Of a stretch of 64,000 nucleotides of DNA, positions 1 through 24,092 are shown piece by piece; positions within the stretch are counted from its first letter, which is position 1; every line of letters begins with the position of its first letter. A program made the translations under genes and the position numbers. This DNA is from a virus (taxonomy: Duplodnaviria > Heunggongvirae > Uroviricota > Caudoviricetes). Below the pieces are notes generated by a model. That model saw only the letters and a list, made by a program, of their open reading frames with translations, was not told where the DNA came from and made no database searches. The stretch lies in the IMG/VR virus record IMGVR_UViG_3300043436_002205; one strand, 5' to 3'.

Positions 1-50
1 GACTATGACTTCGTTATGTGGCGCTTGAAAAATCTAATAGAGGAAAGCAA

Positions 51-2452: not shown

Positions 2453-3223
2453 ATGAAATATAAAAGCATCTTCATAAGTGATGTGCATTTAGGAACCAGA
2501 GGGTGTCAAGCAGACGCCCTCTGTGTTTTCTTAAAAAACAACACAAGCGAAAACCTATTCCTAGTTGGTGATATGCTGGATGGTTGGCGCTTAAAGAAAC
2601 GTTGGTACTTTCCACAGAGTCATGCCAATGTGATACGCAGAATACTCACGGCAGCTAAGCGTGGCACTAGAGTAGAATACATATTAGGTAATCACGATGA
2701 AGCAGGCCGTAAGTTTTTAAACTTTGATATCAGCTTCGGTAATATTAAAGTAACTAACAGACAAGACTACATAGGTTTAGACGGCAAACGTTATCTGGTT
2801 ATTCATGGTGACTTCTTTGACGTATTGATGCATGATAAAAAATGGTTGATGCACATTGGAGATACTTTGTATGACGCTATGATATATGCCAATGTTCAGT
2901 TTAATCGAGTAAGAAGTTTGTTTGGTATGGACTATTGGAGTTTAAGTAAATATCTAAAACAGAATACTAAACACGCGTTAAACTTTATCAATCGTTACGA
3001 AGAACATCTAGCTGCCTATTGTAAGCAACATGGATATGACGGAATAATTTGTGGTCACATTCATCATGCTGAAATAAAAGAAATAAATGGTGTTATATAC
3101 ATGAACGATGGCGACTGGGTCGAGAGTGCCACCGCTCTGGTAGAACACTTTGATGGAAGATGGGAGATAGTGCATTATGCCGAAGATCTTAATAGTTACA
3201 GACAACTTACCGAATCAGATTAA
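2453..3223 (+). CDS. calcineurin-like metallophosphoesterase of the LpxH/PlcP family (candidate phospholipase C PlcP-like)
   Basis: Motifs FISDVHLG, GDMLDGW, GNHDE, IHGDFFD, CGHIHH and GDW align with the LpxH-type metallophosphoesterase signature. It lies immediately upstream of, and overlaps, a GT4 gene, as in the plcP-agt lipid-remodelling pair of alphaproteobacteria. Confidence 0.7.
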   Translation: MKYKSIFISDVHLGTRGCQADALCVFLKNNTSENLFLVGDMLDGWRLKKRWYFPQSHANVIRRILTAAKRGTRVEYILGNHDEAGRKFLNFDISFGNIKVTNRQDYIGLDGKRYLVIHGDFFDVLMHDKKWLMHIGDTLYDAMIYANVQFNRVRSLFGMDYWSLSKYLKQNTKHALNFINRYEEHLAAYCKQHGYDGIICGHIHHAEIKEINGVIYMNDGDWVESATALVEHFDGRWEIVHYAEDLNSYRQLTESD

Positions 3224-4184
3224 TGGTGTGGTTACGACCTACAAAAATATTGAGACGTATGCGATTCGCGACGGTTATACTGTTGATTATATTCATCCCG
3301 GGATGTACGGCCATATTGATTGCCCAAAGTACAATGAAGTTAAGCTTGCCTGGGCACCTCCTTGGGTTGTTGGGAAAGAGATCAAGAAGATTGATCCGGA
3401 TTATATACACATCGCCACAGAAGGTCCTATGGGTATGTCTGCTAGAAGGTATCTTGCAATACGTGGGATTAAGTACAATACTGCTTACCATACTAAGTTT
3501 CCTGAAGGTGTAAGGACGTTACTAGGAATTCCTGAAGGAATTACTTGGGCAGTTGTGCGCTGGTTCCATAAGAATAGCAATAAGGTACTCACTACGACAA
3601 AATCAATGGTCGATGAACTTCATGCGCATGGATTTAATAACAATGTTATTCATTGGACTCGAGGAGTTGATAGGGATATATTCAAACCGGCAGTGAAAGA
3701 ACCATGCTCGCACATTAACCTCGTTTGCGTGAGTCGAGTAAGCAAAGAAAAAAATCTGGAAGCTTTTCTTGAGATAAACTACCCCAATGCAGTTAAAACT
3801 ATCGTAGGCGATGGTCCTATGTTAGAAACATACAAGAAGCAATATCCTTACGTGAACTTTGTAGGTGCCAAACGTGGTGCTGAACTCGCGCATTATTATC
3901 AACAGGCTGATGTTTTTGTGTTTCCTAGTCGTTGGGATACATTTGGATTGGTGATGATTGAGGCAATGGCATGCGGTACTCCGGTCGCTGCTTATCCTGT
4001 GCAAGGACCATTAGACGTAATAGATCAAGATGTAACTGGTTATATGGATGAGGATATCACTATCGCTATTAAAAAATCTCTTGACCTCGATAGAGAATCA
4101 GTATACAAATTCAGCATGAAATGGGATTGGGGAAACGCTTGGAACATTTTTCGAGACAATCTTATAAACTGTAAAACTAACTAG
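3177..4184 (+). CDS. glycosyltransferase family 4 (Agt-like glycosyl-diacylglycerol synthase candidate)
   Basis: Typical GT4 N-terminus (KILIVTDNLPNQINGVVTTY) and C-terminal EAMACGTPVAA motif. It overlaps the upstream gene by 47 nt. Confidence 0.8.
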   Translation: MPKILIVTDNLPNQINGVVTTYKNIETYAIRDGYTVDYIHPGMYGHIDCPKYNEVKLAWAPPWVVGKEIKKIDPDYIHIATEGPMGMSARRYLAIRGIKYNTAYHTKFPEGVRTLLGIPEGITWAVVRWFHKNSNKVLTTTKSMVDELHAHGFNNNVIHWTRGVDRDIFKPAVKEPCSHINLVCVSRVSKEKNLEAFLEINYPNAVKTIVGDGPMLETYKKQYPYVNFVGAKRGAELAHYYQQADVFVFPSRWDTFGLVMIEAMACGTPVAAYPVQGPLDVIDQDVTGYMDEDITIAIKKSLDLDRESVYKFSMKWDWGNAWNIFRDNLINCKTN

Positions 4185-4194
4185 AGGATAAACC

Positions 4195-4953
4195 ATGATT
4201 GTACTATTAGGATACGGCTTCGTTGGTAAAGCTCACTATAAAGCGTTTAGCCCTCATCACGAAATGTCTATCGTAGATCCGGCCTTCAGCAATATTCGTA
4301 TCAAAGACATAGAAAACATTAGTGGTGCTATCGTCTGTGTTTCGACTCCATCATCTGAAGATGGAAGCTGTGATATGAGCATAATCTATAATGTAATTCA
4401 AGACATTCCAAAAGAAGCTCCAATTCTCATTAAGAGCACGATATCGATGGAGGGATGGGAAACTCTCGAAAGAAACTTTCCTGAACACTCCATCACATTT
4501 AGTCCAGAATTTCTTCGAGCTGCAAGCGCAGACGACGACCTTAAGAACCTCACTCATGCGTTCTTGGCTGGCGGTAACGTTCAATACTGGTTAGATTTTT
4601 ACACGACGGTGTATCCAGACATCAGCATAACTGTATGTAAGCCAAAGCACGCAATTGCCATCAAGTATTTTCGAAACTCGTTTCTTGCGGCAAAGTGTAG
4701 CTTCTTCAACGAGATCTACGATTTCTGTGAAACGCTCGGATTGGATTACGAGTCGGTTCGCTCTGGTGTCACGTTAGACTCTCGTATCGGTGAGAGCCAT
4801 ACTTTTGTAAATGAGAACGATAGAGGCTGGGGCGGAGCGTGTTTTCCAAAGGATACCGCGGCGATTCTGCAGACGGCAAAGAACTCAGGCGTCGAGCTAC
4901 AGACGCTAGAAGCTGCCGTAAAATATAATGAGTCTGTTCGAAAAAAAGTTTAA
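4195..4953 (+). CDS. truncated UDP-glucose/GDP-mannose 6-dehydrogenase family protein (Ugd-like, lacks the C-terminal UDP-binding domain)
   Basis: Rossmann N-terminus GYGFVGKA. Catalytic-Cys motif GWGGACFPKD. The ORF ends about 30 aa after that Cys, at 252 aa against roughly 390-440 aa for Ugd. Confidence 0.6.
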   Translation: MIVLLGYGFVGKAHYKAFSPHHEMSIVDPAFSNIRIKDIENISGAIVCVSTPSSEDGSCDMSIIYNVIQDIPKEAPILIKSTISMEGWETLERNFPEHSITFSPEFLRAASADDDLKNLTHAFLAGGNVQYWLDFYTTVYPDISITVCKPKHAIAIKYFRNSFLAAKCSFFNEIYDFCETLGLDYESVRSGVTLDSRIGESHTFVNENDRGWGGACFPKDTAAILQTAKNSGVELQTLEAAVKYNESVRKKV

Positions 4954-5016
4954 GAAAGCCATTGACATTTGCTTCTACATTGATTATATCTATATTGTAA
5001 GCAATGGAGAACAACT

Positions 5017-5295
5017 ATGGCTATCGCAATCGTGACCCCCGAAGAAGTTGAAGTCGACGTCTGCTACGGCAACTTTGACGGTTCCTATACCAAAACTATG
5101 TATGTAGTTGACTTCTTTAGAACTGAAGTAGGTATGTTGCACGGCGATCTCGACACATCGATGTATATCAAGACTGAACACGATGCAAAGATGATGGCCC
5201 GACTTTATGAACTCGGCATGACCGGCCGTGGCGAATACAACGAGATTACCTTTAACAAGATTTTTGAAGATGCAGAGGTTGGCGAAGATGCCTAA
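5017..5295 (+). CDS. hypothetical protein
   Basis: 92-aa ORF whose stop overlaps the start of the next gene. Confidence 0.4.
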   Translation: MAIAIVTPEEVEVDVCYGNFDGSYTKTMYVVDFFRTEVGMLHGDLDTSMYIKTEHDAKMMARLYELGMTGRGEYNEITFNKIFEDAEVGEDA

Positions 5296-5812
5296 GGTTG
5301 AAGTTCTCGTAGGTCTGCCTGGTTCAGGTAAGTCGACTCGATTGTCGTTTGTTGACGATCCGGAGTTTGGTGGAGACGTCTTTGTGTATAGCACTGATGC
5401 ATATATCGAAGCTCGAGCCAAAGAAGCTGGTAAGTCTTACGACGACGTGTTCGGTGATCACATCAACGAAGCAACTAAGCATATGAATAATGTGCTTGCA
5501 ATTGCTATCAGCGCAGGGATTGATGTGTACTGGGATCAGACTAATATGTCTTCGAAGAAGCGTAAGAGCATCTTGTCGAAGTTCCCTAAGAACTATCACA
5601 AGGAATGTTGGTGCGTTCGTGTTCCTCAGACTGCTGAAGAGTGGGCTGAACTCGATCGTCGCCTTGATTCTCGTCCTGGGAAGACTATCCCTCATCACAT
5701 CATTGAAGCTATGGCTGATTCCTATGTTGAACCTGAACTCGATGAAGGCTTCGATAAGATCACCATTGTCGACATCTTTTGCAATGTAATTATGGAGAAG
5801 AAAAATGCATGA
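5288..5812 (+). CDS. pnk: polynucleotide 5'-kinase (kinase domain of T4 Pnk, as a stand-alone gene)
   Basis: Walker A GLPGSGKST. The DQTN motif and RxxRxGKxIP match the T4 Pnk kinase domain (DTN; RNSKRGTKAVPIDVL). The start is chosen at the ATG that overlaps the upstream stop. Confidence 0.7.
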   Translation: MPKVEVLVGLPGSGKSTRLSFVDDPEFGGDVFVYSTDAYIEARAKEAGKSYDDVFGDHINEATKHMNNVLAIAISAGIDVYWDQTNMSSKKRKSILSKFPKNYHKECWCVRVPQTAEEWAELDRRLDSRPGKTIPHHIIEAMADSYVEPELDEGFDKITIVDIFCNVIMEKKNA

Positions 5813-5852
5813 TATTGCGTACTTAGTTATTAATTGGAAATTGGAGGAATAG

Positions 5853-6038
5853 ATGGCTTTTTATACTATGATTGGCTTCATTGTCGTTGCGGCTGTGATT
5901 GGTGTTGGTGCGTATTGGGTGGTGTCAAATATCACGTTTAAACGCCAGCCTGAACGCTTCACGTATACCAAAGATGAAGATGGTAATGAATACGTCCGTG
6001 ATAACACTGTAACAACGAAAGATAAACCTGATGTTTAA
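5853..6038 (+). CDS. small membrane protein (possible partner of the SPFH protein)
   Basis: Single TM helix at the N-terminus. It overlaps the start of the SPFH gene. Confidence 0.4.
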   Translation: MAFYTMIGFIVVAAVIGVGAYWVVSNITFKRQPERFTYTKDEDGNEYVRDNTVTTKDKPDV

Positions 6039-6987
6039 ACCTGATCGCTATGACTTTAACACTAAAGCTGAGTATGAAGCAGCACTAAATCAATATAATG
6101 AACGTAAAAGGAAAATGAAAATGAATGCTATCGTTGGTGGAACTATCGCTACTGTCGTCGGTCTTACTGCACTGACTGTAATTGGCGGATCGTGGTATAC
6201 TGTTGATGAAGGTTACCGTGGTGTAACTCTTCGTAACGGTGCCGTGGTTGGTACTGCAGAACCAGGTCTTGGATTTAAAATCCCTTTGATCGAAAAGGTG
6301 GTTGATATTTCTGTTCAATCACAGGCTCAGTTGTACGAGAACATCCTTGCTTACTCTCGTGATCAACAGACTGCGGGTCTAAACCTGTCTGTTAACTATC
6401 GCTTCCCTGCAGATCAAGTTGAGACGATCTATCGTGAATATGGTGGCGAAGCTGGCGTGATCTCTCGCTTGCTTGATCGTCAGGTTCTTGAAGAAGTCAA
6501 GAACGTCTTTGGTAAGTTCAACGCAGCAACCGCTATTCAGGAACGTGAACGTCTTGCTGCAGAAGTTCAGATGGCAATCCAGAAAGCTGTAATTGGTCCT
6601 ATCATCGTTGAGTCGGTTCAAATTGAGAACATCGACTTCTCTGATGCTTATGAACAATCGATTGAAGCTCGTATGCTTGCAGAAGTCGAAGTGCAAAAGG
6701 TTCGGCAGAACGCAGAACGTGAAAAGGTTCAGGCTGAGATCGTCGTGACTCAGGCACAGGCACAAGCCGACGCTCAACTAGCTCAAGCAGTTGCGGCCGC
6801 AGAAGCAACTCGTATTCAAGGTGAAGCAGAAGCAAGCGCGATTAAGGCGAAAGCAGAAGCTCTGAAGGATAACGCAGGTTTGATTGCTCTAGTTCAAGCT
6901 GAAAAGTGGAACGGTGCTCTTCCTACCACTATGATCCCAGACTCGACTGTTCCATTCATGGACGTTGTTGCTAAGCCAGCCCAGTAA
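6031..6987 (+). CDS. SPFH/band-7 (prohibitin/HflC-like) domain protein
   Basis: N-terminal TM segment, band-7 core (GYRGVTLRNGAVVG...KIPLIEKV) and a C-terminal Ala/Glu/Gln coiled-coil. Confidence 0.75.
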   Translation: MFKPDRYDFNTKAEYEAALNQYNERKRKMKMNAIVGGTIATVVGLTALTVIGGSWYTVDEGYRGVTLRNGAVVGTAEPGLGFKIPLIEKVVDISVQSQAQLYENILAYSRDQQTAGLNLSVNYRFPADQVETIYREYGGEAGVISRLLDRQVLEEVKNVFGKFNAATAIQERERLAAEVQMAIQKAVIGPIIVESVQIENIDFSDAYEQSIEARMLAEVEVQKVRQNAEREKVQAEIVVTQAQAQADAQLAQAVAAAEATRIQGEAEASAIKAKAEALKDNAGLIALVQAEKWNGALPTTMIPDSTVPFMDVVAKPAQ

Positions 6988-7004
6988 GATAAAAATATGA
7001 AGAA

Positions 7005-7030
7005 AAAGAGCGCTTCGGCGCTCTTTTTTG
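7005..7030 (+). terminator. rho-independent terminator
   Basis: AGAGCGC-ttcg-GCGCTCT stem followed by TTTTTT. Confidence 0.7.
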
Positions 7031-7090
7031 TTTACAATCTCATAAAACTAGTTTATACAGAACAAGTATGAACCAATTCGGAGAATCGTT

Positions 7091-8215
7091 ATGGAAGTTA
7101 AAACAAGCACTGAGAACCTGTATAAGGTAGATACAAAAGGTAAGACGCGAGTCTGGCGAGCAGAGACCGGCACTGATGGAACTCGATGGGGTCTACGGAC
7201 GATCTCAGGGCTTCAGGACGGAAAACAGATTACTTCTGAATGGACCTTCGTTGAACAAAAGAACGTCGGACGCTCAAACGAGACGTCTCTCGAAGCGCAA
7301 GCAAACGCTGAGATGGTATCTGAAATGCAGAAGAAAGAAGATACTGGCTATTTCTCTAACATCGATATGATCCATACCTTTGATAAGTTCAAGCCGATGT
7401 TGGCTGAGAAGTATGAAGAGGTTCCGGTTAACTGGTCAAAGGGATACATCTATAGTCAACCGAAGCTCGATGGCATTCGTTGCATCGCTCGTAAGGATGG
7501 TCTATGGACTCGCGCAGGAAAAGAAATCGTCGCTGTTCCTCACGTCTGGGAGTCGCTGCAGTCTTATTTTGAAAAGAATCCAAACTTAATTCTTGACGGC
7601 GAACTCTATAATCACGAGCTGAAGGATGACTTCAACACCATCACCTCGATGGTTCGTAAGACAAAACCGAAGCCCGAAGACATCATGAAATCGAAGGAAC
7701 TCGTGCAGTATCACGTCTATGACGTCTATGTGACTGATAGTCCGGATCTGCCGTTCCGTAAGCGTGAGCTGTTGCGCTACGAAGCTTCGAACGAATTCGT
7801 AAAGATGGTTCCGACCATGCAGGTCAACGATCCGCAGTCGATCGATACTCTGTATGAGGGTTATCTCGAACATGGATACGAAGGTCAGATGATCCGCATC
7901 GATGGTCGTTACGAGAACAAGCGTACGAAAAACTTGCTGAAGCGTAAAGAGTTCTTGACCGACGAGTTCGAAGTCAAGGAAATGATGTCTGGTATTGGAA
8001 ACTGGCAGGGATGCACTAAACATTTTGTTTTGAAACTGAATGATACTCGTGACTTCCAAGCTGGTGTTCGTGGTGACATGGACACTCTACGTGCTCTCTG
8101 GGATGCAGGCAAGAAACCCGATTGGGTTACTCTTCGCTACTTCACTCCGACTCCGGATGGCGTTCCTCGGTTTCCAGTCGTAATCGATTGGGGCTTTGGA
8201 AAAAGAGAAGATTAA
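7091..8215 (+). CDS. ATP-dependent DNA ligase
   Basis: Nucleotidyltransferase motif I KLDGIR and motif IV-like EGQMIR. Size and layout resemble T7-type ligases. Confidence 0.8.
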   Translation: MEVKTSTENLYKVDTKGKTRVWRAETGTDGTRWGLRTISGLQDGKQITSEWTFVEQKNVGRSNETSLEAQANAEMVSEMQKKEDTGYFSNIDMIHTFDKFKPMLAEKYEEVPVNWSKGYIYSQPKLDGIRCIARKDGLWTRAGKEIVAVPHVWESLQSYFEKNPNLILDGELYNHELKDDFNTITSMVRKTKPKPEDIMKSKELVQYHVYDVYVTDSPDLPFRKRELLRYEASNEFVKMVPTMQVNDPQSIDTLYEGYLEHGYEGQMIRIDGRYENKRTKNLLKRKEFLTDEFEVKEMMSGIGNWQGCTKHFVLKLNDTRDFQAGVRGDMDTLRALWDAGKKPDWVTLRYFTPTPDGVPRFPVVIDWGFGKRED

Positions 8216-8238
8216 ATGAAAAAGAGTGCACTTTCCTA

Positions 8239-8296
8239 TTTACATTCATTTAGAATCAGTATATTCTAATAATGTAAGGAACGAAAGGAACATCCG
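8239..8296 (+). promoter_or_regulatory. conserved early/middle promoter copy 1 (TTTACA-N6-TAGAAT-cagtat-ATTCTA, shared leader AATGTAAGGAACGAAAGGAA)
   Basis: One of six near-identical intergenic elements, each ending at an ATG. It contains a -35-like hexamer, a palindrome, and an RBS. Confidence 0.55.
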
Positions 8297-8482
8297 ATGT
8301 TTGTACTCACTCTTGCTGCTGACTACGAAGGTGAAACCCTTCTAGGCGTATACTCGTCTCGTGAACTCGCAGAAGCTGCTTCGCAACAGTATCTGGTTGA
8401 TGCTGAACGTGATCTGCCATCTTATGAGCAGTTCGTTGTTCGTGAAGTCGCAGTTGATGCACCTGCAGAATATCGCTTCTAA
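8297..8482 (+). CDS. hypothetical small protein
   Basis: ORF immediately downstream of promoter copy 1. Confidence 0.45.
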   Translation: MFVLTLAADYEGETLLGVYSSRELAEAASQQYLVDAERDLPSYEQFVVREVAVDAPAEYRF

Positions 8483-8492
8483 GGAGAATCAG

Positions 8493-8654
8493 ATGTACAA
8501 GGTCTACGCACACTACGAAGAGTTCGATCGTTACGGCGATCGACTCGAGTCTTACGACATGTTTAGAGCAGACACAAAAGAAGAGGTCGAAAAGATCGTT
8601 GAAGGTCTCGACAAAGAGTACTATGTTTTTATTGAAATCGCAAAGGTGATCTAA
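8493..8654 (+). CDS. hypothetical small protein
   Basis: AGGAGA RBS 5 nt upstream of the ATG. The listed ORF at 8361 has an unsupported N-extension. Confidence 0.4.
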   Translation: MYKVYAHYEEFDRYGDRLESYDMFRADTKEEVEKIVEGLDKEYYVFIEIAKVI

Positions 8655-8655
8655 G

Positions 8656-9021
8656 ATGACTTGGAACCTGTTTCTTGATGACGAACGTAACCTCGAGGAT
8701 GCCACTTGGGCACCTTGGCAGGTTCGCGAGAAGTATCGTAACGAAGAGTGGGTGATCTGCCGCAATTTTTATGAAGTTGTTATAGCTGTTAGGACGAGAG
8801 GAATGCCATCATATATTTCATTTGATCACGATCTTGGTCAAGATGAACCCACCGGTCACGATGTCGCTAAACGTATTATGTATTGGGATATGAATGATAA
8901 GCGCTACCCGCTTCCAGACAACTTTGACTTCTACGTCCACTCACAAAACCCTATCGGCAAAGCAAACATCGAAGGCTTGCTGAACAACTATCTGAGGATT
9001 ATAAATGCTAATCGTATTTGA
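8656..9021 (+). CDS. hypothetical protein
   Basis: 121-aa ORF, tightly spaced to its neighbours. Confidence 0.45.
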   Translation: MTWNLFLDDERNLEDATWAPWQVREKYRNEEWVICRNFYEVVIAVRTRGMPSYISFDHDLGQDEPTGHDVAKRIMYWDMNDKRYPLPDNFDFYVHSQNPIGKANIEGLLNNYLRIINANRI

Positions 9022-9451
9022 CTTGGACGGAACACTCGCTAACATCGAGCATCGTTTGGACTATGTTCGTAGCAAGCCTAAGAACTGGGCTGCATTTGAT
9101 GCTGGCATTCCGAATGATAAAGTGAACCGATTTGTTGCGGAAGCCTTTCACTCTCTAAGTGCTGCTAGGAACACCATTGTCCTAGCGAGCGGTCGCAACG
9201 AGCGCAGTCGTGAAGCCACAGTCGCATGGTTGACTAAGAACAACCTGCATACGTGGGACAAGCTCTACATGCGTCCCGCAGATGACTTCCGTGGTGATGA
9301 TATTGTAAAGCGTGAAATGCTGGATCAAATCATCTCTGACTTTGGTAAGAAGCCAGACATGGTGTTTGACGATCGTCCTCGCGTGGTTCGCATGTGGCGT
9401 GATGCTGGTATCTTTGTGTTTAACGTCTATCAAGGTGAGGAGGACTTCTAA
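9005..9451 (+). CDS. HAD-family polynucleotide 3'-phosphatase (phosphatase domain of T4 Pnk, as a stand-alone gene)
   Basis: HAD motif I FDLDGTL, SGR motif, and a C-terminal DDRPRVVRMWRDAG matching T4 Pnk DDRTQVVEMWRRIG. Confidence 0.7.
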   Translation: MLIVFDLDGTLANIEHRLDYVRSKPKNWAAFDAGIPNDKVNRFVAEAFHSLSAARNTIVLASGRNERSREATVAWLTKNNLHTWDKLYMRPADDFRGDDIVKREMLDQIISDFGKKPDMVFDDRPRVVRMWRDAGIFVFNVYQGEEDF

Positions 9452-9775
9452 TGGGTAAACATATCAAAACTCAACTGGACTACGATCTAATCGAAACTCT
9501 TGCACAGGAGTTGCATCGAGTGGATCCAGATAATGCTAAACTGAAACACTATCTGGCAATGGATAACTTTGAAGGTGGAGAGCTGCGTAAGGCAGTTACA
9601 AAGGTGAGCAAATGATTGACACAGCAGGCGCATATATTCTTATTCTAATCAGCTCTTATAACGGAGCTGCTATTACAACACTGGAATTCCCTAATTATGA
9701 TTCTTGCAAATCTGCTATTACACAGCTTGAGCCGGTGCGCGCCTTGGAAGGATATTGTATTGCAAAGGAAGTAAA

Positions 9776-10024
9776 ATGACTGACGAAGAACTGGTGAAGC
9801 GGCTGCGGAAGCGGCAAGAGTTTGAGTCTATTGACGGGTACAAGCGGATTGAGTGGAAAGATGAAGATGCTCTCGAAGCCGCCGACCGCATCGAAGAACT
9901 AGAGGACAATCTGGCGAAGGCCGTCGGGGGTCTTAATGCAATCTATGTTTGGGGAGAAGACACGTATGCAAGAGATATGGCCCGCACCACGCTGGGCGAG
10001 ATTGCGGGAAAGAAGACATGGTAA
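9776..10024 (+). CDS. hypothetical protein
   Basis: ORF in the 9755 frame. The ATG at 9776 (MTDEELVKR) is the preferred start. Confidence 0.35.
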   Translation: MTDEELVKRLRKRQEFESIDGYKRIEWKDEDALEAADRIEELEDNLAKAVGGLNAIYVWGEDTYARDMARTTLGEIAGKKTW

Positions 10025-10314
10025 GTAACGAAGAACTAAAATCTCCAATTAATGCCTTCCAACAGTTAATGGCAATTACAGCAGAAGAATCGGGCGAATT
10101 AACTCAAGTCTGCATGAAAATTATGCGTAAGTATGATAACATGGAAGATATGTCTAAAGACAAATATAGGTATCAACTAGTTGAAGAAGCAGGTGATGTG
10201 CTTTGTATGATTAAACTAATGGTAGAACACGGCGTCTTGACTAATGATGAATTAGATGATAGAGTAGATGTAAAGCGAAATAAACTTAAAACTTGGAGTA
10301 ATTTAATTAAATGA
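10018..10314 (+). CDS. mazG: MazG-like nucleoside triphosphate pyrophosphohydrolase
   Basis: MazG-domain signature (AITAEESGELTQ...EEAGDVLCMI). Start taken at the ATG overlapping the upstream stop (ATGGTAA). Confidence 0.75.
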   Translation: MVSNEELKSPINAFQQLMAITAEESGELTQVCMKIMRKYDNMEDMSKDKYRYQLVEEAGDVLCMIKLMVEHGVLTNDELDDRVDVKRNKLKTWSNLIK

Positions 10315-10622
10315 CCAAATATGTAATCGTAACTGCTATCTCGTCTTACCGTATGCGGTATTGTATTCCTGTAGATGAACTGCAGGAATTGAACGTTGAA
10401 GTTCCTGTCGAAGGACGTGAGATCGAATGGGCTGAAGACTGTGTTACCTGTGACGAGGTAGTAGAGTTTTCTCAGAAGCACGTTGGCGAGACTATCATCG
10501 ACTCGGAGATTCTCACCGAAGAACAGATGCTCGAGAAGTTCGACGCTGACAACGACTATCTTAAAGATTGGACTCGTGAGAAGAAGGTCGAATACGTTCG
10601 CAATTGGAAAAATATTTCCTAA
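10311..10622 (+). CDS. hypothetical acidic protein
   Basis: 103-aa ORF. Confidence 0.45.
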   Translation: MTKYVIVTAISSYRMRYCIPVDELQELNVEVPVEGREIEWAEDCVTCDEVVEFSQKHVGETIIDSEILTEEQMLEKFDADNDYLKDWTREKKVEYVRNWKNIS

Positions 10623-10648
10623 AAAATCGTGGTCAGTGCACTTTCCTA

Positions 10649-10707
10649 TTTACATTCGTTTAGAATCAGTGTATTCTAATAATGTAAGGAACGAAAGGAA
10701 ACTGACC
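10649..10707 (+). promoter_or_regulatory. conserved early/middle promoter copy 2
   Basis: TTTACA, then TAGAAT-cagtgt-ATTCTA, then the shared leader. Near-identical to copy 1, including the upstream GTGCACTTTCC. Confidence 0.55.
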
Positions 10708-10914
10708 ATGATGACCTTCAACGAACACAACGAAGCTACCAACTCCATCAAGCCGGTTATGATCCATAAGACTTTCAAAGGTTACATGGTCTTTACCCCC
10801 GAGGGTCGTCTGCTCGACAACTTCACCTCAGCCGGTCCTTTCGTGGACTTCGAAGCTGCTAAGCGTAACGCCGAAACGAATGTCGGTATGGCAATGAACT
10901 GGAGTGACTTCTAA
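10708..10914 (+). CDS. hypothetical small protein
   Basis: The ATG follows the shared leader. The listed ORF at 10483 would read through the promoter element. Confidence 0.45.
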   Translation: MMTFNEHNEATNSIKPVMIHKTFKGYMVFTPEGRLLDNFTSAGPFVDFEAAKRNAETNVGMAMNWSDF

Positions 10915-11225
10915 TGACCGCTGTAATGATCCCCGTCGTCTTTCTTATCGTACTCGTTGTGTACGGTGCAATCGAAGATCTTGTGCTAGGAAAAGCAGAA
11001 TGACTTGTTCTTCGTGTAACAGTGACTGCAACCAGGGTCGTGCCTGCCCAAGCCGAAGTAGTATTGAAAGAGTAGGCTTCCTTCGGATTAAGTGGTCCGG
11101 TTTTCATTGGTATCGTGCCGAAGATTTTGAAGAAGTCACTGATGGTTACAGCTATGCAGATGGTGCCATCGTGTTGGGTTTGTTTGTCTATCGGTATCGT
11201 GTATGGCGCAAAGCAAAGATTAAAA

Positions 11226-11417
11226 ATGACTGACGAAAAACAATACGAAGTGGCGAATGGTCTCTGGATTGGTTCTAAATTTGGAGACCTCCGCCGCGAA
11301 CGAGAGAAGCTTATGAAGAAACTCGTTCAAGATAATGACGCTTCGGTAAAGCCACGAATTCGTGAACTCACTCTTGAGATGACAGAGTATCTATCGAGTC
11401 GAAAAAGGAACACCTAA
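11226..11417 (+). CDS. hypothetical small protein
   Basis: Internal ATG (MTDEKQY...) of ORF 11115..11417. Its stop overlaps the rnlA start. Confidence 0.35.
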   Translation: MTDEKQYEVANGLWIGSKFGDLRREREKLMKKLVQDNDASVKPRIRELTLEMTEYLSSRKRNT

Positions 11418-12559
11418 TGCACTACGCCTTTCCTATCATACGCACCATCGAAGACGTCCTTCCTCACATCGAAGGTCGTCCTGAGTTCGTTGTGGCAGAA
11501 CGTGAAGGGTATACCATCGTCAACTATGTGGTGGCGATGGCTGACACCTTTGATATGACTGGCCCCGATGACCTTGGTGGCGCGATCCGCCGTGAATGCC
11601 GTGGTCTTATCTTTGATGCTGATGGTAACCTGATGAGCCGCCCGTTTCACAAGTTCTTCAACGTGAACGAACGTGAAGAGACTCAAGCACATCGGTTGGA
11701 TCTCAGTGTTTTGTTTGATCACGTGATCATGGAAAAGCTCGATGGTTCGATGATCCGTCCTATCTTGGTCGATGGTTACCTTCGTCTTGCTACCAAGATG
11801 GGCGTGACTGAAGTGGCTATGCAGGCTGAGACCTGGCTTGCTGCTCAGGACCCTTCGTTGAACGAATGGCTTCGTCAGTGTGTACACGACTCGGTGACTC
11901 CGATCTTTGAGTGGGTAAGCCCGTTCAACCAGATCGTGTTGGCATACGAAGAAGCAGACCTCGTGTATCTTGGTACTCGTGACAACGCAACCGGTGCGTA
12001 TGTAATGGATAAGTCTTGTCCGTTCTCCACTGTTCCTCGTTATGGTAGTGTAGAAGGCAACCTTGCTGACTACATTAGCCGTCAGCGCGGTGCAGAAGGT
12101 CGTGAGGGTGACATCATTCGTTTTGCTGATGGCCATATGGTTAAGGTCAAGAATGATTGGTATGTGCGTATCCACAAGACTGTGGATCGTATCGTGTTCG
12201 ACCGTAACATCGTTGCTCTTATCCTCAACGAGGAAATGGACGACGTGATGCCGATGCTACCTGTCATTCAGGCAAACCGTGTTCGTAACTTTGAGGTTCG
12301 TTTTGCAGAGCGGCTTCATGCTGTCGTAGAAATCTACGATCGCTACTGGAACACCGTGGTCGCAAGCGGTCTCGACCGCAAGCGTTACGCTTTGGAGTGG
12401 ATGCCGTCCATCAAGGACAACGACTCATTCGCTCCTAACTATGTGTTTGGGCGTTTCGCTGGCCGTGACGGTCGCGAGATGATCCTTGATCATATCGAAA
12501 AGCAATTGTCGTCTAACGTCAAGTGGGATGAATGCGCAACTTGGATGGGAATGAAGTAA
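11417..12559 (+). CDS. rnlA: RNA ligase 1 (T4 RnlA-like)
   Basis: KxDG motif EKLDGSM. Blocks ECRGLIFD, FHKFFNVNE, SPFNQIVLAYEE, EGDIIRFADGHMVKVKNDWYV parallel T4 Rnl1 ([50 protein letters not shown]). Confidence 0.75.
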   Translation: MHYAFPIIRTIEDVLPHIEGRPEFVVAEREGYTIVNYVVAMADTFDMTGPDDLGGAIRRECRGLIFDADGNLMSRPFHKFFNVNEREETQAHRLDLSVLFDHVIMEKLDGSMIRPILVDGYLRLATKMGVTEVAMQAETWLAAQDPSLNEWLRQCVHDSVTPIFEWVSPFNQIVLAYEEADLVYLGTRDNATGAYVMDKSCPFSTVPRYGSVEGNLADYISRQRGAEGREGDIIRFADGHMVKVKNDWYVRIHKTVDRIVFDRNIVALILNEEMDDVMPMLPVIQANRVRNFEVRFAERLHAVVEIYDRYWNTVVASGLDRKRYALEWMPSIKDNDSFAPNYVFGRFAGRDGREMILDHIEKQLSSNVKWDECATWMGMK

Positions 12560-12802
12560 ATGACTTATTGGGCTACACTATGGTACTCTGGTGCGGTCGT
12601 GATGCAGCTTGGCTATGAAGGTCAAACTGCCGACGAGTGTTTGTCACTCACGCGAACGATGACGTTAGACCTTGAGCAGAGTTATGCGGAACCGGAAAAT
12701 ATCGATCCGCAAACTTTGTTCATGTTTCCGACGAATGAATTCGCCGTGAGCTGCGAGATGGAAGAGCTCGGCATCGATGAAAAATACGCTAAAGAGAATT
12801 GA
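12560..12802 (+). CDS. hypothetical protein
   Basis: 80-aa ORF with an ATGA-type overlap to the upstream gene. Confidence 0.4.
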   Translation: MTYWATLWYSGAVVMQLGYEGQTADECLSLTRTMTLDLEQSYAEPENIDPQTLFMFPTNEFAVSCEMEELGIDEKYAKEN

Positions 12803-12805
12803 AAG

Positions 12806-13039
12806 ATGGTCGAATTTGTAGATGTAGCAATTAGCGACCTTGTTTCAGTTACAAAGTTCCTTCGCAGCATCAATCCATCCTTTAAGGATAAGCTCGTTGT
12901 AGGTATTGAAAAACCACAAAGCATGGACCGAAGCGTGGTGTTTCATCTGTCTTCAAAAGAAGACGTAGAAGAAGACATCATCTTTATGCTATGTGCCGAA
13001 TATATTCTTGAACATCCCTATTGGAAACAAAATAAATAG
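12806..13039 (+). CDS. hypothetical protein
   Basis: 77-aa ORF. Confidence 0.4.
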   Translation: MVEFVDVAISDLVSVTKFLRSINPSFKDKLVVGIEKPQSMDRSVVFHLSSKEDVEEDIIFMLCAEYILEHPYWKQNK

Positions 13040-13951: not shown

Positions 13952-13952
13952 G

Positions 13953-13993
13953 TTGACATTCTGATAGAATCAGTATACTCTAGTAAATATCAT
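13953..13993 (+). promoter_or_regulatory. conserved early/middle promoter copy 3 (divergent: TTGACA-ttctga-TAGAAT-cagtat-ACTCTA)
   Basis: Same architecture as the other copies but with a degenerate palindrome and leader. Confidence 0.45.
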
Positions 13994-14595: not shown

Positions 14596-15423
14596 TTGAA
14601 GAGATTACTGTACCAGTTTCACGTCGACTTTAAAGATAGAAGTAAGAATGTTTTCGGCGAAAGCTTTGATCGAGTTTCGGTTGGAGAATACTGGAAACAT
14701 AGCACAACTTTTGCAAAAGCATACTGTGAGAGATATGGTATCGACTATAAGTTTGAGTTCCTAAGTGAAGAGGAATATAAACCTTGGGCATTTGGCGTTG
14801 AGACCTTTGATAAGTATAGAGCAGTTCAACATCTAAAGGATTACGATCAGGTTCTATACGTAGACACCGACGTGATCATACACCAAAATGCCGATAACAT
14901 CTTTGAAGAATTTATGCATAGCGGACTCGTCGGTTACTTTGATAATGTCGCTGATAGATATATTCATAGGGATAGCAGCTCGCTCGGAAAGATAAATTCT
15001 GGTGTCATACTGTTTAATAACACAAATAGAAATTTAAAGAACGGACATGGAAAACTATATAACATGGATATATTTTCTGGTAACTATCCATGCAGAGGAA
15101 CTCCATCTGAAACTCATATACTTGAGAAATTTTCAAAGGGCAAATGGTGGGAGCATTGGGAAGAAAAGCATTCTGAAAACGTAATTTATCTAAAGAACAA
15201 AACAGCTTCAGATGAAAATTTCTTTCACTACATTGTGAACTTATATACTCTACTTCCATTCCATATCGGAAGAAAGTATAACTATCGCAGAAAATTTAGC
15301 GAAAAGCCATTCTTTAGAAGTGGATCGGAAATGATTGAGGTGTCTCCAAGCTTTATTCATTATGAAGGCGCATCTAAAAAACTAATTTATAAAGACTTCG
15401 AAGAAGGTTTATTTTTTAAATGA
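14596..15423 (+). CDS. GT8-like nucleotide-diphospho-sugar glycosyltransferase (GT-A fold)
   Basis: DxD motif in LYVDTDVIIHQ, and INSGVILFNN resembling the GT8 NSGVM motif. Confidence 0.5.
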   Translation: MKRLLYQFHVDFKDRSKNVFGESFDRVSVGEYWKHSTTFAKAYCERYGIDYKFEFLSEEEYKPWAFGVETFDKYRAVQHLKDYDQVLYVDTDVIIHQNADNIFEEFMHSGLVGYFDNVADRYIHRDSSSLGKINSGVILFNNTNRNLKNGHGKLYNMDIFSGNYPCRGTPSETHILEKFSKGKWWEHWEEKHSENVIYLKNKTASDENFFHYIVNLYTLLPFHIGRKYNYRRKFSEKPFFRSGSEMIEVSPSFIHYEGASKKLIYKDFEEGLFFK

Positions 15424-16355: not shown

Positions 16356-16391
16356 TCTAAGATAAATATCTCTACAAGATGGAGATATTTT

Positions 16392-16958
16392 ATGATAGTT
16401 GCTGGTATTGATTATAGTTTGACGAGCCCCGCTATATGCGTTCACGAGGGCGATGAATGGAACGTGAAAAACTGCCGTTTCTACTATGTCGTACATCGAG
16501 AGAAATCAGTCGTTGTCTCTGGGCAGTTCTATGGAGAGATGTATCAAGAGTATCTTTGCGACGCGCATCGATACGATAACCTCTCAAAGTGGTCACTCAA
16601 GACTCTCACATCAAACAACGTAACTAAGTGCTTCATTGAAGGATACGCCTTCAATGCTGTCGGCCGAGTCTTTCAGATAGCAGAGAACACCGGCCAACTA
16701 AAGTATCGTCTTTGGAAAGACAAGATTCCCTTTCAAGTGTTTGCGCCACCCGAGATCAAAAAGTTTGCTACCACGAAGGGAAACGCAAACAAAGAAAAGA
16801 TGTATGAAAGCTTTTTTGAAGAAACAATGGTTGACATTCGCGTAGAATTGGATATATTAAATAAGAATCAATGGAATCCGGTTTCGGACATTGTTGATTC
16901 CTACTATATCGCAAAGCTAGGCTTCATAAAGGAAAAAGAAAATGTGGATCAAGCGTAA
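16392..16958 (+). CDS. RuvC-like Holliday junction resolvase (RNase H fold), putative
   Basis: GIDYSLTSPAICV N-terminus resembles RuvC GIDPG. Internal E (IEGYAF). C-terminal DIVDSYYIA resembles RuvC DAADALAIA. Confidence 0.45.
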   Translation: MIVAGIDYSLTSPAICVHEGDEWNVKNCRFYYVVHREKSVVVSGQFYGEMYQEYLCDAHRYDNLSKWSLKTLTSNNVTKCFIEGYAFNAVGRVFQIAENTGQLKYRLWKDKIPFQVFAPPEIKKFATTKGNANKEKMYESFFEETMVDIRVELDILNKNQWNPVSDIVDSYYIAKLGFIKEKENVDQA

Positions 16959-17991: not shown

Positions 17992-18005
17992 GGAGATACT
18001 ATATT

Positions 18006-18284: not shown

Positions 18285-18294
18285 GGAAACAGTT

Positions 18295-24040: not shown

Positions 24041-24092
24041 CATTCGTTCAGAATCAGTATAGACTGTTCTATATCAAACGAAAGGATACACC
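24037..24092 (+). promoter_or_regulatory. conserved early/middle promoter copy 4 (degenerate palindrome)
   Basis: TTGACATTCGTTCAGAATCAGTAT...AACGAAAGGATACACC then ATG. Confidence 0.45.

What the first reader, a model, noticed from the sequence alone, without database searches (positions are those of the whole stretch)
5288..12559. T4-type RNA repair system with polynucleotide kinase split into separate kinase and phosphatase genes, plus an RnlA-like RNA ligase
5288..5812 matches only the kinase half of T4 Pnk (P-loop, DTN, RxxRxGK.IP). 9005..9451 matches only the HAD 3'-phosphatase half, including DDRxxVVxMWRxxG. 11417..12559 is an Rnl1 homologue with KLDG. In T4 these enzymes heal and seal tRNA cleaved by host anticodon nucleases (PrrC-type defence). 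Their presence implies the host population carries tRNA-targeting defence or toxin systems. The domain-split Pnk is an unusual arrangement. Three genes lie between the two halves.
Basis: partly seen in the sequence, partly recalled or inferred. Interest (0 to 1): 0.7.

Follow-up and report, generated by a model that had tools for sequence, protein, structure and literature searches.

The report
Phage RNA repair genes, split Pnk
An uncultured T4-like phage carries the usual phage toolkit for mending cut tRNA, with the kinase and the phosphatase as separate genes plus a fourth, untested partner gene (cREC); this layout proves common among environmental and cultured phages, so the finding is real but ordinary.

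Summary
[quoted passage not shown] 9005-9451 is a stand-alone PNK-type HAD 3'-phosphatase with every T4 catalytic residue. 11417-12559 is a full-length Rnl1 (T4 RnlA) ligase with every essential residue.

Two points are wrong or missed.
- Six ORFs, not three, separate the kinase from the phosphatase.
- The ORF just upstream of the phosphatase, overlapping it by 17 nt (8656-9021), is a cREC domain. cREC is a predicted but untested cyclic-phosphate-processing receiver domain, and it is a recurrent fourth member of this module.

The "unusual split Pnk" claim fails.
- 129 of the 150 best cluster representatives of the phosphatase are stand-alone.
- At least 22 of 27 related viral contigs carry separate HAD and kinase ORFs, usually in the order HAD, kinase, Rnl1.
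- Cultured phages hold the same split set. Ochrobactrum phage vB_OspM_OC has a tight HAD-cREC-Rnl1-kinase cluster. DSS3P8, Cr30 and the Bacillus Tsamsa/Thrax phages are further examples.

The window is a dispersed version, in a region cut up by repeated early-promoter cassettes. [quoted passage not shown] This is a new member of a known kind. The only open element is the role of cREC.

The parts
5288..5812 (+). Stand-alone P-loop kinase (174 aa) of the polynucleotide-kinase / PSTK clade; the predicted RNA 5'-OH kinase
   Evidence: Family and profile hits:
- AAA_33 7.7e-12 and PHROG 505 (Pnk, kinase half) 7.9e-09.
- A family profile against the PDB hits PSTK 2e-06, the stand-alone fungal RNA kinase RazKIN 5e-06, Pnkp1 2.4e-05 and T4 Pnk 7.9e-05.
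- hhalign against T4 PseT residues 1-173: probability 95.8%, E 8e-09.

Structure: AF2 pLDDT 91. The best TM-scores and rmsd are to CthPnk and T4 Pnk (TM 0.62-0.70, rmsd 3.2-3.3), but the best Foldseek E-values go to zeta toxins.

Residues: K15/S16, D37 (T4 D35), R125/R129 (T4 R122/R126) and I134/P135/I138 (T4 V131/P132/V135) are conserved. The T4 Arg38 equivalent is Ile.

Context: family members abut Rnl1 genes in many phages.
   Evidence: - PF20274 E 1.8e-21 and PHROG 1479.
- Invariant D8, D57-H58-D59, H95-S96 and N98 across 42 homologues.
- AF2 pLDDT 95.6, a four-stranded alpha/beta fold. The only PDB neighbours are receiver domains, and weakly (E 1e-3 and above, TM about 0.5).
- It overlaps the HAD start by 17 nt.
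- cREC directly precedes the HAD in L007/L008, L009/L010, L013 and L046.
- It lies between the HAD and Rnl1 in Ochrobactrum phage vB_OspM_OC.
- The function is a published prediction only (PMC7824862).
9005..9451 (+). Stand-alone PNK-type HAD 3'-phosphatase (148 aa)
   Evidence: - PF25109 HAD_PNKP 102.8 bits against a cut-off of 27.6.
- PDB sequence hits: Pnkp1 1.4e-09, T4 Pnk phosphatase domain 8.3e-07.
- The equivalents of T4 D165, D167, R176, R213, D254, K258, D277 and D278 are all invariant in the alignment.
11417..12559 (+). Rnl1-family (T4 RnlA) ATP-dependent RNA ligase, 380 aa, predicted adenylylation lysine K107
   Evidence: - PF09511 89.3 bits against a cut-off of 28.3, and PHROG 562 E 3.3e-72 over the full length.
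- T4 Rnl1 structures E 6e-30 over residues 59-369.
- The equivalents of T4 R54, K75, F77, K99, G102, K119, E159, E227, G228, K240 and K242 are all invariant.
8225..8290 (+). Repeated early-promoter-like cassette upstream of the unit that contains cREC and the HAD
   Evidence: A 66-nt element, 97% identical to 10635-10700. Its core, TTGACATTC-N7-GAATCAGTrTAyTCT, recurs at least 7 times on the + strand. This is a consensus match and a repeat only. Promoter activity is inferred.
10635..10700 (+). Second copy of the same promoter-like cassette, upstream of the unit that contains Rnl1
   Evidence: Promoter activity is inferred.
7003..7028 (.). Palindromic GC-rich hairpin flanked by A and T runs. 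It looks like a terminator and separates the kinase/Band 7 unit from the DNA ligase and the units downstream
   Evidence: This is a pattern match only.

Best explanation
The region of this roughly 205-kb uncultured T4-like myovirus encodes a dispersed, four-gene RNA end-healing and end-sealing module of the T4 PseT/RnlA type. All four genes lie on the + strand among early-type genes.

Proposed pathway:
1. [quoted passage not shown]
2. The HAD phosphatase (nucleophile D6, general acid D8) restores a 3'-OH. It may be helped by, or act after, the translationally coupled cREC protein, which would open the cyclic phosphate.
3. The stand-alone P-loop kinase (K15, D37, R125, R129) phosphorylates the 5'-OH.
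4. Rnl1 (K107) adenylylates the 5'-phosphate and seals the nick.

Shown here: family membership, conservation of active-site residues, and recurrent gene linkage of the four families.

Inferred: the substrates, the order of steps, the contribution of cREC, and the biological target (a host tRNA-cleaving defence).
For: Sequence and structure:
- The HAD and Rnl1 exceed the curated Pfam cut-offs by a wide margin and keep all T4 catalytic residues.
- The kinase family aligns with T4 PseT 1-173 at 95.8% hhalign probability.
- Besides PSTK, its best PDB sequence matches are polynucleotide 5'-kinases: RazKIN, Pnkp1, T4 Pnk, LcoKIN, mammalian PNKP and CthPnk (RazKIN activity in PMC11571804).

Linkage in viral contigs anchored on Rnl1 (27 contigs):
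- 22 have a separate kinase ORF and 22 a separate HAD ORF within 10 kb. Two more show kinase fragments at a contig edge.
- The commonest order is HAD, kinase, Rnl1 on one strand.
- 8 also have cREC next to the HAD or after Rnl1.

Linkage in cultured phages:
- Ochrobactrum phage vB_OspM_OC has overlapping genes p110 HAD, p109 cREC, p108 Rnl1 and p107 kinase.
- The kinase lies immediately downstream of Rnl1 in DSS3P8, V10, MD18, RcXuper, Cr30 and RHph_I1_18. It lies next to an RNA ligase in Bacillus Tsamsa/Thrax-type phages.

Precedent in T4:
- rnlA and pseT are likewise separated by four small genes on one strand.
- T4 Pnkp and Rnl1 repair PrrC-cut tRNA-Lys. This is established knowledge and is also stated in the T4 record notes.
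Against: - The kinase assignment is the weakest link. Single-sequence similarity to T4 Pnk is insignificant (E 0.43).
- The top profile hit is PSTK, and the top Foldseek E-values go to zeta toxins.
- In the window the four genes are not one operon. They lie in at least three promoter-delimited units spread over 7.3 kb.
- The window's kinase is only 36-44% identical to the Rnl1-adjacent kinases of otherwise close relatives. Its closest orthologues (L003, L006) sit near NAD-salvage genes rather than next to Rnl1.
- cREC is not generally tied to these genes: only 14 of 80 cREC loci have a HAD, kinase or Rnl1 within 6 kb, using my own narrow profiles.
- The T4 phosphatase opens cyclic phosphates by itself (PMC3592404), so cREC may be dispensable for this pathway.
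- No host or target nuclease is known.
Confidence: 0.78

Rival explanations
1. The kinase at 5288-5812 is not a polynucleotide 5'-kinase. It would phosphorylate something else: an aminoacyl-tRNA or other tRNA-linked group (PSTK/Kti12-like), a sugar nucleotide (zeta-toxin-like), or an NAD-related metabolite. In that case only the HAD and Rnl1 belong to RNA repair.
For: - The best profile hit in the PDB is PSTK (E 2e-06), and NCBIfam's best hit is PSTK (1.4e-04).
- Source annotations call close homologues 'Kti12', and PF08433 is precomputed on some of them.
- The best Foldseek E-values go to zeta/PezT toxins.
- The T4 Arg38 equivalent is absent.
- Orthologues in L003 and L006 lie near NadM-Nudix and NAMPT genes.
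Against: - The protein has no C-terminal tRNA-binding domain such as PSTK and Kti12 carry (174 aa in all).
- Zeta toxins are about 100 aa longer and align with rmsd above 5 A, against 3.2-3.3 A for T4 Pnk and CthPnk.
- The nucleobase pocket of the T4 acceptor site (V131/P132/V135) is kept as I/P/I (PMC2831316).
- Family members lie directly beside Rnl1 genes in phages of Alphaproteobacteria, Bacillus and cyanobacteria, and in most related contigs.
- A separate AAA_28 (NadR-type) kinase is present in L003 for the NAD pathway.
Confidence: 0.13
2. The kinase and the HAD phosphatase mainly heal DNA breaks (5'-OH, 3'-phosphate) for the ATP-dependent DNA ligase encoded between them at 7091-8215. This would resemble mammalian PNKP working with DNA ligases.
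For: - The DNA ligase (PF01068 E 2.2e-17, PHROG 114 E 5.6e-62) lies between the kinase and the HAD.
- A DNA ligase homologue is also near the HAD or Rnl1 in L003, L013 and L041/L042.
- T4 Pnkp acts on DNA ends in vitro (established knowledge).
Against: - In most related contigs the DNA ligase is not within 10 kb, while Rnl1 is adjacent to the kinase and the HAD.
- T4-like phages need a DNA ligase for replication in any case.
- In the window the ligase follows a terminator-like hairpin and its own promoter-like site.
Confidence: 0.06
3. cREC (8656-9021) is not part of RNA repair. It would degrade a soluble cyclic-phosphate or ADP-ribose-derived immune signal (counter-defence against Thoeris- or CBASS-type systems). 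Its position next to the HAD would be an accident of a shuffled early region. This rival concerns the fourth component only.
For: - PMC7824862 proposes cADPR or 2',3'-cyclic nucleotide processing as alternatives and reports linkage to NAD/ADPr-processing genes.
- 66 of 80 cREC loci have no HAD, kinase or Rnl1 within 6 kb.
- The window also carries the anti-Thoeris gene Tad3 at 18-542, and the contig carries YAcAr upstream.
- The T4 phosphatase needs no helper for cyclic ends (PMC3592404).
Against: - The start/stop overlap with the HAD is conserved in the window's clade.
- A cREC of a different subfamily sits right after Rnl1 in L018, L020-L022 and L035/L037.
- cREC sits between the HAD and Rnl1 in a distant cultured phage.
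- My profiles did not cover Rnl2, RtcB or other repair genes, so the count of 66 overstates the lack of linkage.
Confidence: 0.3

Closest known systems
Bacteriophage T4 PseT (Pnkp) plus RnlA (Rnl1), the tRNA-Lys repair pathway that counters the PrrC anticodon nuclease
   Same: - The same three catalytic modules are present, with the same active-site residues.
- The Rnl1 homology is full length.
- The genes are loosely linked on one strand among early genes, as with T4 rnlA-alc-pseT.3-pseT.2-pseT.1-pseT.
- The carrier is a T4-type myovirus.
   Different: - The kinase and the phosphatase are separate proteins encoded 3.2 kb apart.
- The kinase belongs to a divergent subfamily that lacks the T4 Arg38 equivalent and has WDQTN in place of SDTN.
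- An extra cREC gene is coupled to the phosphatase.
- Identity to the T4 proteins is only 22-31%.
Split sets already in cultured phage genomes: Ochrobactrum phage vB_OspM_OC p107-p110; Roseobacter phage DSS3P8 gp099/gp105/gp106 and relatives (V10, MD18, RcXuper); Caulobacter phage Cr30; Rhizobium phage RHph_I1_18
   Same: - The stand-alone HAD, the stand-alone kinase of the same family (34-47% identity) and Rnl1 (36-40% identity) are all present.
- vB_OspM_OC also has cREC, giving the same four families.
   Different: - In those phages the genes are compact. In vB_OspM_OC all four overlap or abut, and elsewhere the kinase directly follows Rnl1.
- In the window they are spread over three transcription-unit-like blocks.
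- None of these sets has, to my knowledge, been tested biochemically.
Bacillus Tsamsa/Thrax ('Tyrovirus') phages: polynucleotide kinase gp100 plus RNA ligase gp101
   Same: A stand-alone kinase of the same family (about 30% identity) lies beside an RNA ligase. The authors interpret the pair as T4-like RNA repair (PMC9703825).
   Different: They are siphoviruses of Firmicutes. I did not check them for a PNK-type HAD or for cREC.
Bacterial Pnkp1-Rnl-Hen1 RNA repair complex (Capnocytophaga gingivalis, PDB 4xrp)
   Same: It is the best solved-structure sequence match for the HAD (E 1.4e-09) and a top match for the kinase profile (2.4e-05). It heals and seals ribotoxin-cut RNA (PMC4411300).
   Different: Pnkp1 is a fused kinase-HAD protein. 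Its ligase is a different protein, and Hen1 adds a 2'-O-methyl mark. I did not look for a Hen1 homologue in the window.
Mucorales stand-alone tRNA-splicing enzymes (KIN, LIG) as against trifunctional fungal Trl1
   Same: It is a precedent that healing and sealing domains fused in one lineage work as separate proteins in another. RazKIN (176 aa) is a verified stand-alone RNA 5'-OH kinase and a top profile hit (E 5e-06) (PMC11571804).
   Different: It is a eukaryotic tRNA-splicing pathway with a GTP-dependent kinase, a 2H-type CPDase and a 2'-phosphate junction. It has no HAD phosphatase.
cRec-containing systems predicted by Iyer et al. 2021 (Viruses 13:63)
   Same: The same Pfam family (PF20274), with the reported operonic linkage to RNA ligases in phages (PMC7824862).
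   Different: That paper describes linkage to RNA ligases and to NAD/ADPr enzymes. The text passages I read do not mention the start/stop-overlapped cREC-to-HAD pair seen here. I could not see its Figure 6.

Membership tests
T4-type polynucleotide 5'-kinase (Pnkp kinase domain clade of P-loop kinases) | P-loop GxxGxGK(S/T) with the catalytic Lys and Ser | tested here: met
   GLPGSGKST. K15, S16 and T17 are invariant and align with T4 K15/S16.
T4-type polynucleotide 5'-kinase (Pnkp kinase domain clade of P-loop kinases) | General-base Asp that contacts the 5'-OH (T4 D35) | tested here: met
   D37 in YSTDAY is invariant in 43 family members and aligns with T4 D35. The role of D35 is from PMC2831316.
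T4-type polynucleotide 5'-kinase (Pnkp kinase domain clade of P-loop kinases) | [quoted passage not shown] | tested here: not met
   The position is Ile40, nearly invariant in the family. It is Ile or Val in the Rnl1-adjacent kinases too.
T4-type polynucleotide 5'-kinase (Pnkp kinase domain clade of P-loop kinases) | RxxxR lid motif (T4 R122, R126) and the aliphatic nucleobase pocket (T4 V131, P132, V135) | tested here: met
   R125, R129, I134, P135 and I138 in RRLDSRPGKTIPHHII. The pocket residues are from PMC2831316.
T4-type polynucleotide 5'-kinase (Pnkp kinase domain clade of P-loop kinases) | Significant profile or fold similarity that separates Pnk from other P-loop kinases | tested here: inconclusive
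   - hhalign to T4 PseT gives 95.8% probability, and the best TM-score and rmsd are to CthPnk and T4 Pnk.
- However, PSTK scores slightly better by sequence profile, and zeta toxins score better by Foldseek E-value.
T4-type polynucleotide 5'-kinase (Pnkp kinase domain clade of P-loop kinases) | 5'-OH polynucleotide kinase activity | not testable with these tools
   This needs an enzyme assay.
Bifunctional T4 Pnkp architecture (kinase fused to HAD) | Kinase and phosphatase in one polypeptide, kinase at the N-terminus | tested here: not met
   They are separate ORFs 3.2 kb apart with six ORFs between them. The window is therefore not a member of the fused architecture, although it has the same two modules.
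PNK-type HAD 3'-phosphatase (Pfam PF25109 HAD_PNKP) | Score above Pfam's gathering threshold over the whole domain | tested here: met
   102.8 bits against 27.6, matching profile positions 4-142 of 143.
PNK-type HAD 3'-phosphatase (Pfam PF25109 HAD_PNKP) | DxDxT nucleophile and general-acid motif, plus the T4 essential residues R176, R213, D254, K258, D277 and D278 | tested here: met
   All are invariant in the alignment with T4 PseT. D6 and D8 form the DLDGT motif. The list of essential residues comes from my knowledge of Shuman-lab mutagenesis. The Asp165 nucleophile is in PMC3592404.
PNK-type HAD 3'-phosphatase (Pfam PF25109 HAD_PNKP) | 3'-phosphatase / 2',3'-cyclic phosphodiesterase activity on polynucleotide ends, rather than 5'-nucleotidase activity | not testable with these tools
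   This needs an enzyme assay.
Rnl1 (T4 RnlA) RNA ligase family | Nucleotidyltransferase domain above the Pfam threshold (PF09511) | tested here: met
   89.3 bits against 28.3.
Rnl1 (T4 RnlA) RNA ligase family | Motif I KxDG lysine and the other residues essential in T4 Rnl1 (R54, K75, F77, G102, K119, E159, E227, G228, K240, K242) | tested here: met
   All are invariant in the four-sequence alignment. The window lysine is K107. The list of essential residues comes from my knowledge of Wang, Ho & Shuman 2003.
Rnl1 (T4 RnlA) RNA ligase family | Rnl1-specific C-terminal (tRNA-specificity) domain | tested here: inconclusive
   PF20819 scores 21.9 bits, below its cut-off of 27. Even so, the phmmer alignment to T4 Rnl1 runs through residue 369, and PHROG 562 matches positions 29-369 of 377.
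Rnl1 (T4 RnlA) RNA ligase family | NCBIfam equivalog threshold (TIGR02308) | tested here: not met
   150.1 bits against a cut-off of 242.25. It is a clear homologue over positions 31-366 of 373, but too divergent for automatic equivalog naming.
cREC (Pfam PF20274) | Score above the gathering threshold, conserved acidic residues at the receiver-type active site, and a receiver-like fold | tested here: met
   - 77 bits against 27.
- D8, D57, H58, D59, H95, S96 and N98 are invariant.
- The only PDB fold neighbours are receiver domains, and weakly (E 1e-3 and above, TM about 0.5).
cREC (Pfam PF20274) | Cyclic-phosphate-processing activity | not testable with these tools
   This is a prediction only (PMC7824862). 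A full-text search found no experimental paper.

The most novel reading that the evidence does not exclude
cREC is a real 2',3'-cyclic phosphodiesterase that forms, with the stand-alone PNK-type HAD, a two-protein 3'-end-healing unit (cREC opens the cyclic phosphate, the HAD removes the phosphate). The Arg38-less stand-alone kinase family would have an acceptor specificity different from T4 Pnk. The four-gene set would then be a distinct, modular RNA repair system, widespread in aquatic T4-like phages, rather than a mere split copy of PseT/RnlA.
Probability: 0.3. Interest if true: 0.5.

Novelty: new member of a known kind. Interest (0 to 1): 0.28.

Why it matters
It adds one more example, from an abundant uncultured phage. 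The exact kinase protein is indexed in 132 blocks of the public assembly collection. The example shows that T4-style RNA heal-and-seal enzymes are standard equipment of environmental T4-like phages, which implies that RNA-cleaving defences are common in their hosts.

The useful corrections are these:
- The fused T4 Pnkp is only one of three common architectures: stand-alone, kinase-HAD and HAD-kinase.
- The untested cREC domain is a recurrent fourth partner.

A simple biochemical test of cREC with the HAD would settle a published prediction. Nothing here changes current understanding.

Tried and rejected
- Near-identity DNA search of 5000-13000 against cultured phages found no match. The phage is uncultured. 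Its major capsid protein is only 64-68% identical to those of Sinorhizobium phiM12-like phages, Methylophilales Melnitz phages and cyanophages.
- Single-sequence PDB search with the kinase was uninformative (best E 0.1, guanylate kinase; T4 Pnk 0.43). A family profile was needed.
- The promoter/terminator consensus scan gave no more sites than shuffled sequence. The repeated cassette was found by eye and by repeat search instead.
- I considered that cREC might be universally tied to RNA repair. This is rejected as a general statement: only 14 of 80 cREC loci show a HAD, kinase or Rnl1 within 6 kb, and no dominant neighbour family emerged. My profiles did not cover Rnl2, RtcB, 2H or Macro families.
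- I considered a second kinase paralogue in the window. None was found with five divergent family members as queries.
- I considered simple fission of a pseT-like gene. This is rejected because the prevailing order in relatives is HAD before kinase, and HAD-kinase fusions exist alongside kinase-HAD fusions.
- No tRNA genes were found in the window.
- The Burroughs & Aravind 2016 NAR survey of RNA repair systems is not held in the library. I could not check what it says about stand-alone PNK kinases and HADs.

Full report
**What the window is.** The minus-strand half of the window encodes T4-type structural proteins. These are portal (PHROG 213, E 1.7e-182), major head protein (PHROG 138, E 2.7e-156), tail sheath, large terminase and scaffold. 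The plus-strand half encodes small early-type genes plus RNase H, PhoH, PstS and sugar-modifying enzymes. There is no near-identical DNA in cultured phages. The capsid protein is 64-68% identical to those of Sinorhizobium phiM12-like phages, Methylophilales Melnitz phages and cyanophages. The exact kinase protein is found on a 205-kb ENA metagenome contig with the same gene order, and it is indexed in 132 blocks of the assembly collection. The source is therefore an abundant, uncultured, distant T4-like myovirus of unknown host.

**Checking the observation.** All three ORFs are at the stated coordinates.

- **Phosphatase, 9005-9451.** This is an unambiguous PNK-type HAD.
  - PF25109 scores 102.8 bits against a cut-off of 27.6.
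  - The best solved relatives are Pnkp1 and the T4 Pnk phosphatase domain.
  - T4 D165, D167, R176, R213, D254, K258, D277 and D278 are all conserved.
- **Ligase, 11417-12559.** This is a full-length Rnl1.
  - PF09511 scores 89.3 bits and PHROG 562 gives E 3.3e-72.
  - T4 Rnl1 structures match at E 6e-30 over residues 59-369.
  - Every residue I know to be essential in T4 Rnl1 is conserved. The adenylylation lysine is K107 in EKLDGS.
- **Kinase, 5288-5812.** This is the least certain of the three.
  - Pfam sees only AAA_33 and Zeta_toxin. PHROG 505 (polynucleotide kinase) matches at 7.9e-09 on the kinase half.
  - A profile of 43 homologues hits, in order, PSTK, the verified stand-alone RNA kinase RazKIN, Pnkp1, T4 Pnk, LcoKIN, mammalian PNKP and CthPnk (PMC11571804).
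  - hhalign to T4 PseT residues 1-173 gives 95.8% probability.
  - The AF2 model (pLDDT 91) superposes best by TM-score and rmsd on CthPnk and T4 Pnk, although zeta toxins have slightly better Foldseek E-values.
  - The P-loop, the general-base Asp (D37), the RxxxR lid and the aliphatic nucleobase pocket are conserved.
  - The Arg38 equivalent is Ile in the whole family, and the Walker-B-like motif is WDQTN rather than SDTN (PMC2831316).

Six ORFs, not three, lie between the kinase and the phosphatase. They are a 61-aa membrane protein, a Band 7/SPFH protein, an ATP-dependent DNA ligase (which also contains KLDG), two small ORFs, and a 121-aa protein at 8656-9021.

That last ORF is a cREC domain (PF20274, E 1.8e-21). 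Its stop codon lies 17 nt inside the phosphatase gene. cREC was defined by Iyer et al. (PMC7824862) as a divergent receiver domain. They predicted that it processes 2',3'-cyclic RNA ends or cyclic ADP-ribose, and they found it linked to RNA ligases. I found no experimental work on it. Its AF2 model is confident (pLDDT 95.6). It is a four-stranded alpha/beta fold whose only PDB neighbours, and weak ones, are receiver domains. D8, D57-H58-D59, H95-S96 and N98 are invariant.

**Is it a system? Evidence from viral contigs.** I anchored on Rnl1 and recovered 27 viral contigs (several nearly identical to each other).
- 22 have a separate kinase ORF and 22 a separate HAD ORF within 10 kb. Two more show kinase fragments at a contig edge.
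- The commonest arrangement is HAD, kinase, Rnl1 on one strand, often within 2.5 kb.
- 8 contigs also carry cREC, either directly before the HAD or directly after Rnl1.
- No contig has a fused kinase-HAD gene.

**Is it a system? Evidence from cultured phages.**
- The Kyanoviridae member Ochrobactrum phage vB_OspM_OC has four abutting or overlapping genes, in transcription order p110 HAD, p109 cREC, p108 Rnl1 and p107 kinase. I confirmed these assignments with my own profiles.
- Roseobacter phage DSS3P8 has the HAD at gp099, Rnl1 at gp105 and the kinase at gp106.
- The kinase directly follows Rnl1 in V10, MD18, RcXuper, Cr30 and RHph_I1_18. It lies beside an RNA ligase in Bacillus Tsamsa/Thrax phages, where the pair was already read as T4-like RNA repair (PMC9703825).
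- This recurrent linkage across unrelated phage groups is the strongest argument that the kinase family works with Rnl1 and the HAD. It also supports cREC as a frequent fourth member.
- T4 itself keeps rnlA and pseT four small genes apart on one strand.

**Why the window's copy is dispersed.** A 41-66-nt promoter-like cassette recurs at least seven times on the plus strand. Its core is TTGACATTC-N7-GAATCAGTrTAyTCT, followed by a shared ribosome-binding region. Copies lie at 8225-8290 and 10635-10700 (97% identical). A strong hairpin follows the Band 7 gene at 7003-7028.

The four genes therefore seem to sit in three units:
- a weaker cassette match at about 4074-4105, which may head the first unit, then the UGDH-like gene, a hypothetical gene, the kinase, the membrane protein and Band 7, ending at the hairpin;
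- a promoter near 8238, then two small genes, cREC, the HAD and others including a MazG-like gene;
- a promoter near 10648, then small genes, Rnl1 and others.

Promoter and terminator activity are inferred from pattern only. The consensus scan as such was no better than chance. Repeated regulatory cassettes of this kind are known in T4-type phages as shuffling points (my recollection of Arbiol et al. 2010, not checked). That would fit the many gene orders seen among relatives.

The window's kinase is only 36-44% identical to the Rnl1-adjacent kinases of relatives, whereas those relatives' HAD and Rnl1 are 65-85% identical to the window's. Its closest orthologues (63-69%) sit in roughly 195-kb phages near cREC, YAcAr, ClpP, NadM-Nudix, NAMPT and, in one case, Thg1. 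Only one kinase of the family is present in the window.

**Is the split unusual? No.** An exhaustive HMMER search with the HAD found 9,019 cluster representatives at E up to 1e-3 (3,480 at E up to 1e-10). Of the best 150:
- 109 are 170 aa or shorter, and 20 more are 171-230 aa with the HAD only;
- of the 21 longer ones, 8 are kinase-HAD (T4 order), 8 are HAD-kinase (reverse order), and 5 showed no kinase match.

The 120 closest kinase homologues are all stand-alone. PMC7824862 says the PNK-type HAD is 'usually' fused in jumbo phages. In the environmental relatives of this protein the stand-alone form prevails. Stand-alone PNK-family kinases linked to Thg1 and RNA ligases were described in 2010 (PMC2904730).

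**Mechanism.** I commit to T4-style healing and sealing.
1. The HAD, possibly after cREC opens the cyclic phosphate, makes a 3'-OH.
2. The kinase makes a 5'-phosphate.
3. Rnl1 seals the nick.

Homology, catalytic residues and linkage are shown here. Substrates, the order of steps, cREC's contribution and the host nuclease are inferred. The T4 phosphatase can open cyclic ends unaided (PMC3592404; T4 record note), so cREC may be an accessory or may act on soluble signals instead. The latter would fit the neighbouring anti-Thoeris Tad3 gene.

**Rivals.**
- The kinase has another substrate (0.13).
- The healing enzymes serve the DNA ligase (0.06).
- For cREC alone, a counter-signalling role (0.3).

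**Verdict.** This is a new member of a known kind of phage RNA repair set, in an arrangement already present and partly annotated in cultured phages. The one item worth an experiment is the cREC-HAD pair.

Noticed in passing
window 18-542 (+): The ORF matches Pfam Tad3, the Type I Thoeris inhibitor (E 6.7e-39). It is an anti-defence gene about 5 kb upstream of the kinase. The same gene is on the 205-kb contig, with a YAcAr (SLOG) gene further upstream.
   Followed up: partly
window 8225-8290, 10635-10700, 13952-13992, 16830-16870, 24036-24076, 24317-24382, 26236-26301 (+); weaker copy at 4074-4105: A repeated promoter-like cassette, TTGACATTC-N7-GAATCAGTrTAyTCT, often followed by AATAATGTAAGGAACGAAAGGAA. 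It lies in front of small early-type gene blocks and is probably the phage's early promoter and a shuffling point.
   Followed up: partly
window 7091-8215 (+) and 6031-6987 (+): An ATP-dependent DNA ligase (PF01068; PKLDGIR motif) and a Band 7/SPFH protein sit between the kinase and the phosphatase. Both are conserved in relatives but are not consistently linked to the repair genes.
   Followed up: partly
window 2453-4953 and 14596-19508 (+): Sugar-related genes: an LpxH-like metallophosphoesterase, a GT4 glycosyltransferase (also hits 'GT4-conflict'), a truncated UDP-glucose dehydrogenase-like protein, an NAD-dependent epimerase and a second GT1. A PstS phosphate-binding protein lies at 1485-2450. 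They may serve surface or DNA modification. I did not examine them further.
   Followed up: no
window 10024-10314 (+) (gene call 10069-10314): A small MazG-like nucleoside triphosphate pyrophosphohydrolase (PHROG 4856 E 4.8e-18; Pfam MazG is weak, below its cut-off) lies between the phosphatase and Rnl1. It is also near the module in L008/L028 and L031/L039/L040.
   Followed up: no
L041 1108-3058 and L042 10001-11951: In these two viral contigs the Rnl1 homologue is split into two pieces about 0.8 kb apart on the same strand. This suggests an inserted element (intron or homing endonuclease) or a disrupted gene.
   Followed up: no
L003 and L006 (ENA contigs of about 195 kb): Orthologues of the window's kinase sit in a block with cREC followed by a 376-aa weak-AAA protein, then YAcAr, ClpP, an AAA_28 kinase, NadM-Nudix, NAMPT and (in L006) Thg1. 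This is an NAD-salvage and RNA-repair neighbourhood that differs from the window's.
   Followed up: partly
window 44507-49663 (-) and 56146-62424 (-): Two very long ORFs (1718 and 2092 aa) lie in the structural region. The second is in a stretch of raised GC (0.47-0.50) with many overlapping spurious ORFs. I did not analyse them.
   Followed up: no
window 26315-27271 (+), 20746-21192 (+), 23369-24040 (+): DUF932, DUF6433 and a PD-(D/E)XK nuclease-like protein among the early genes. I did not examine them.
   Followed up: no
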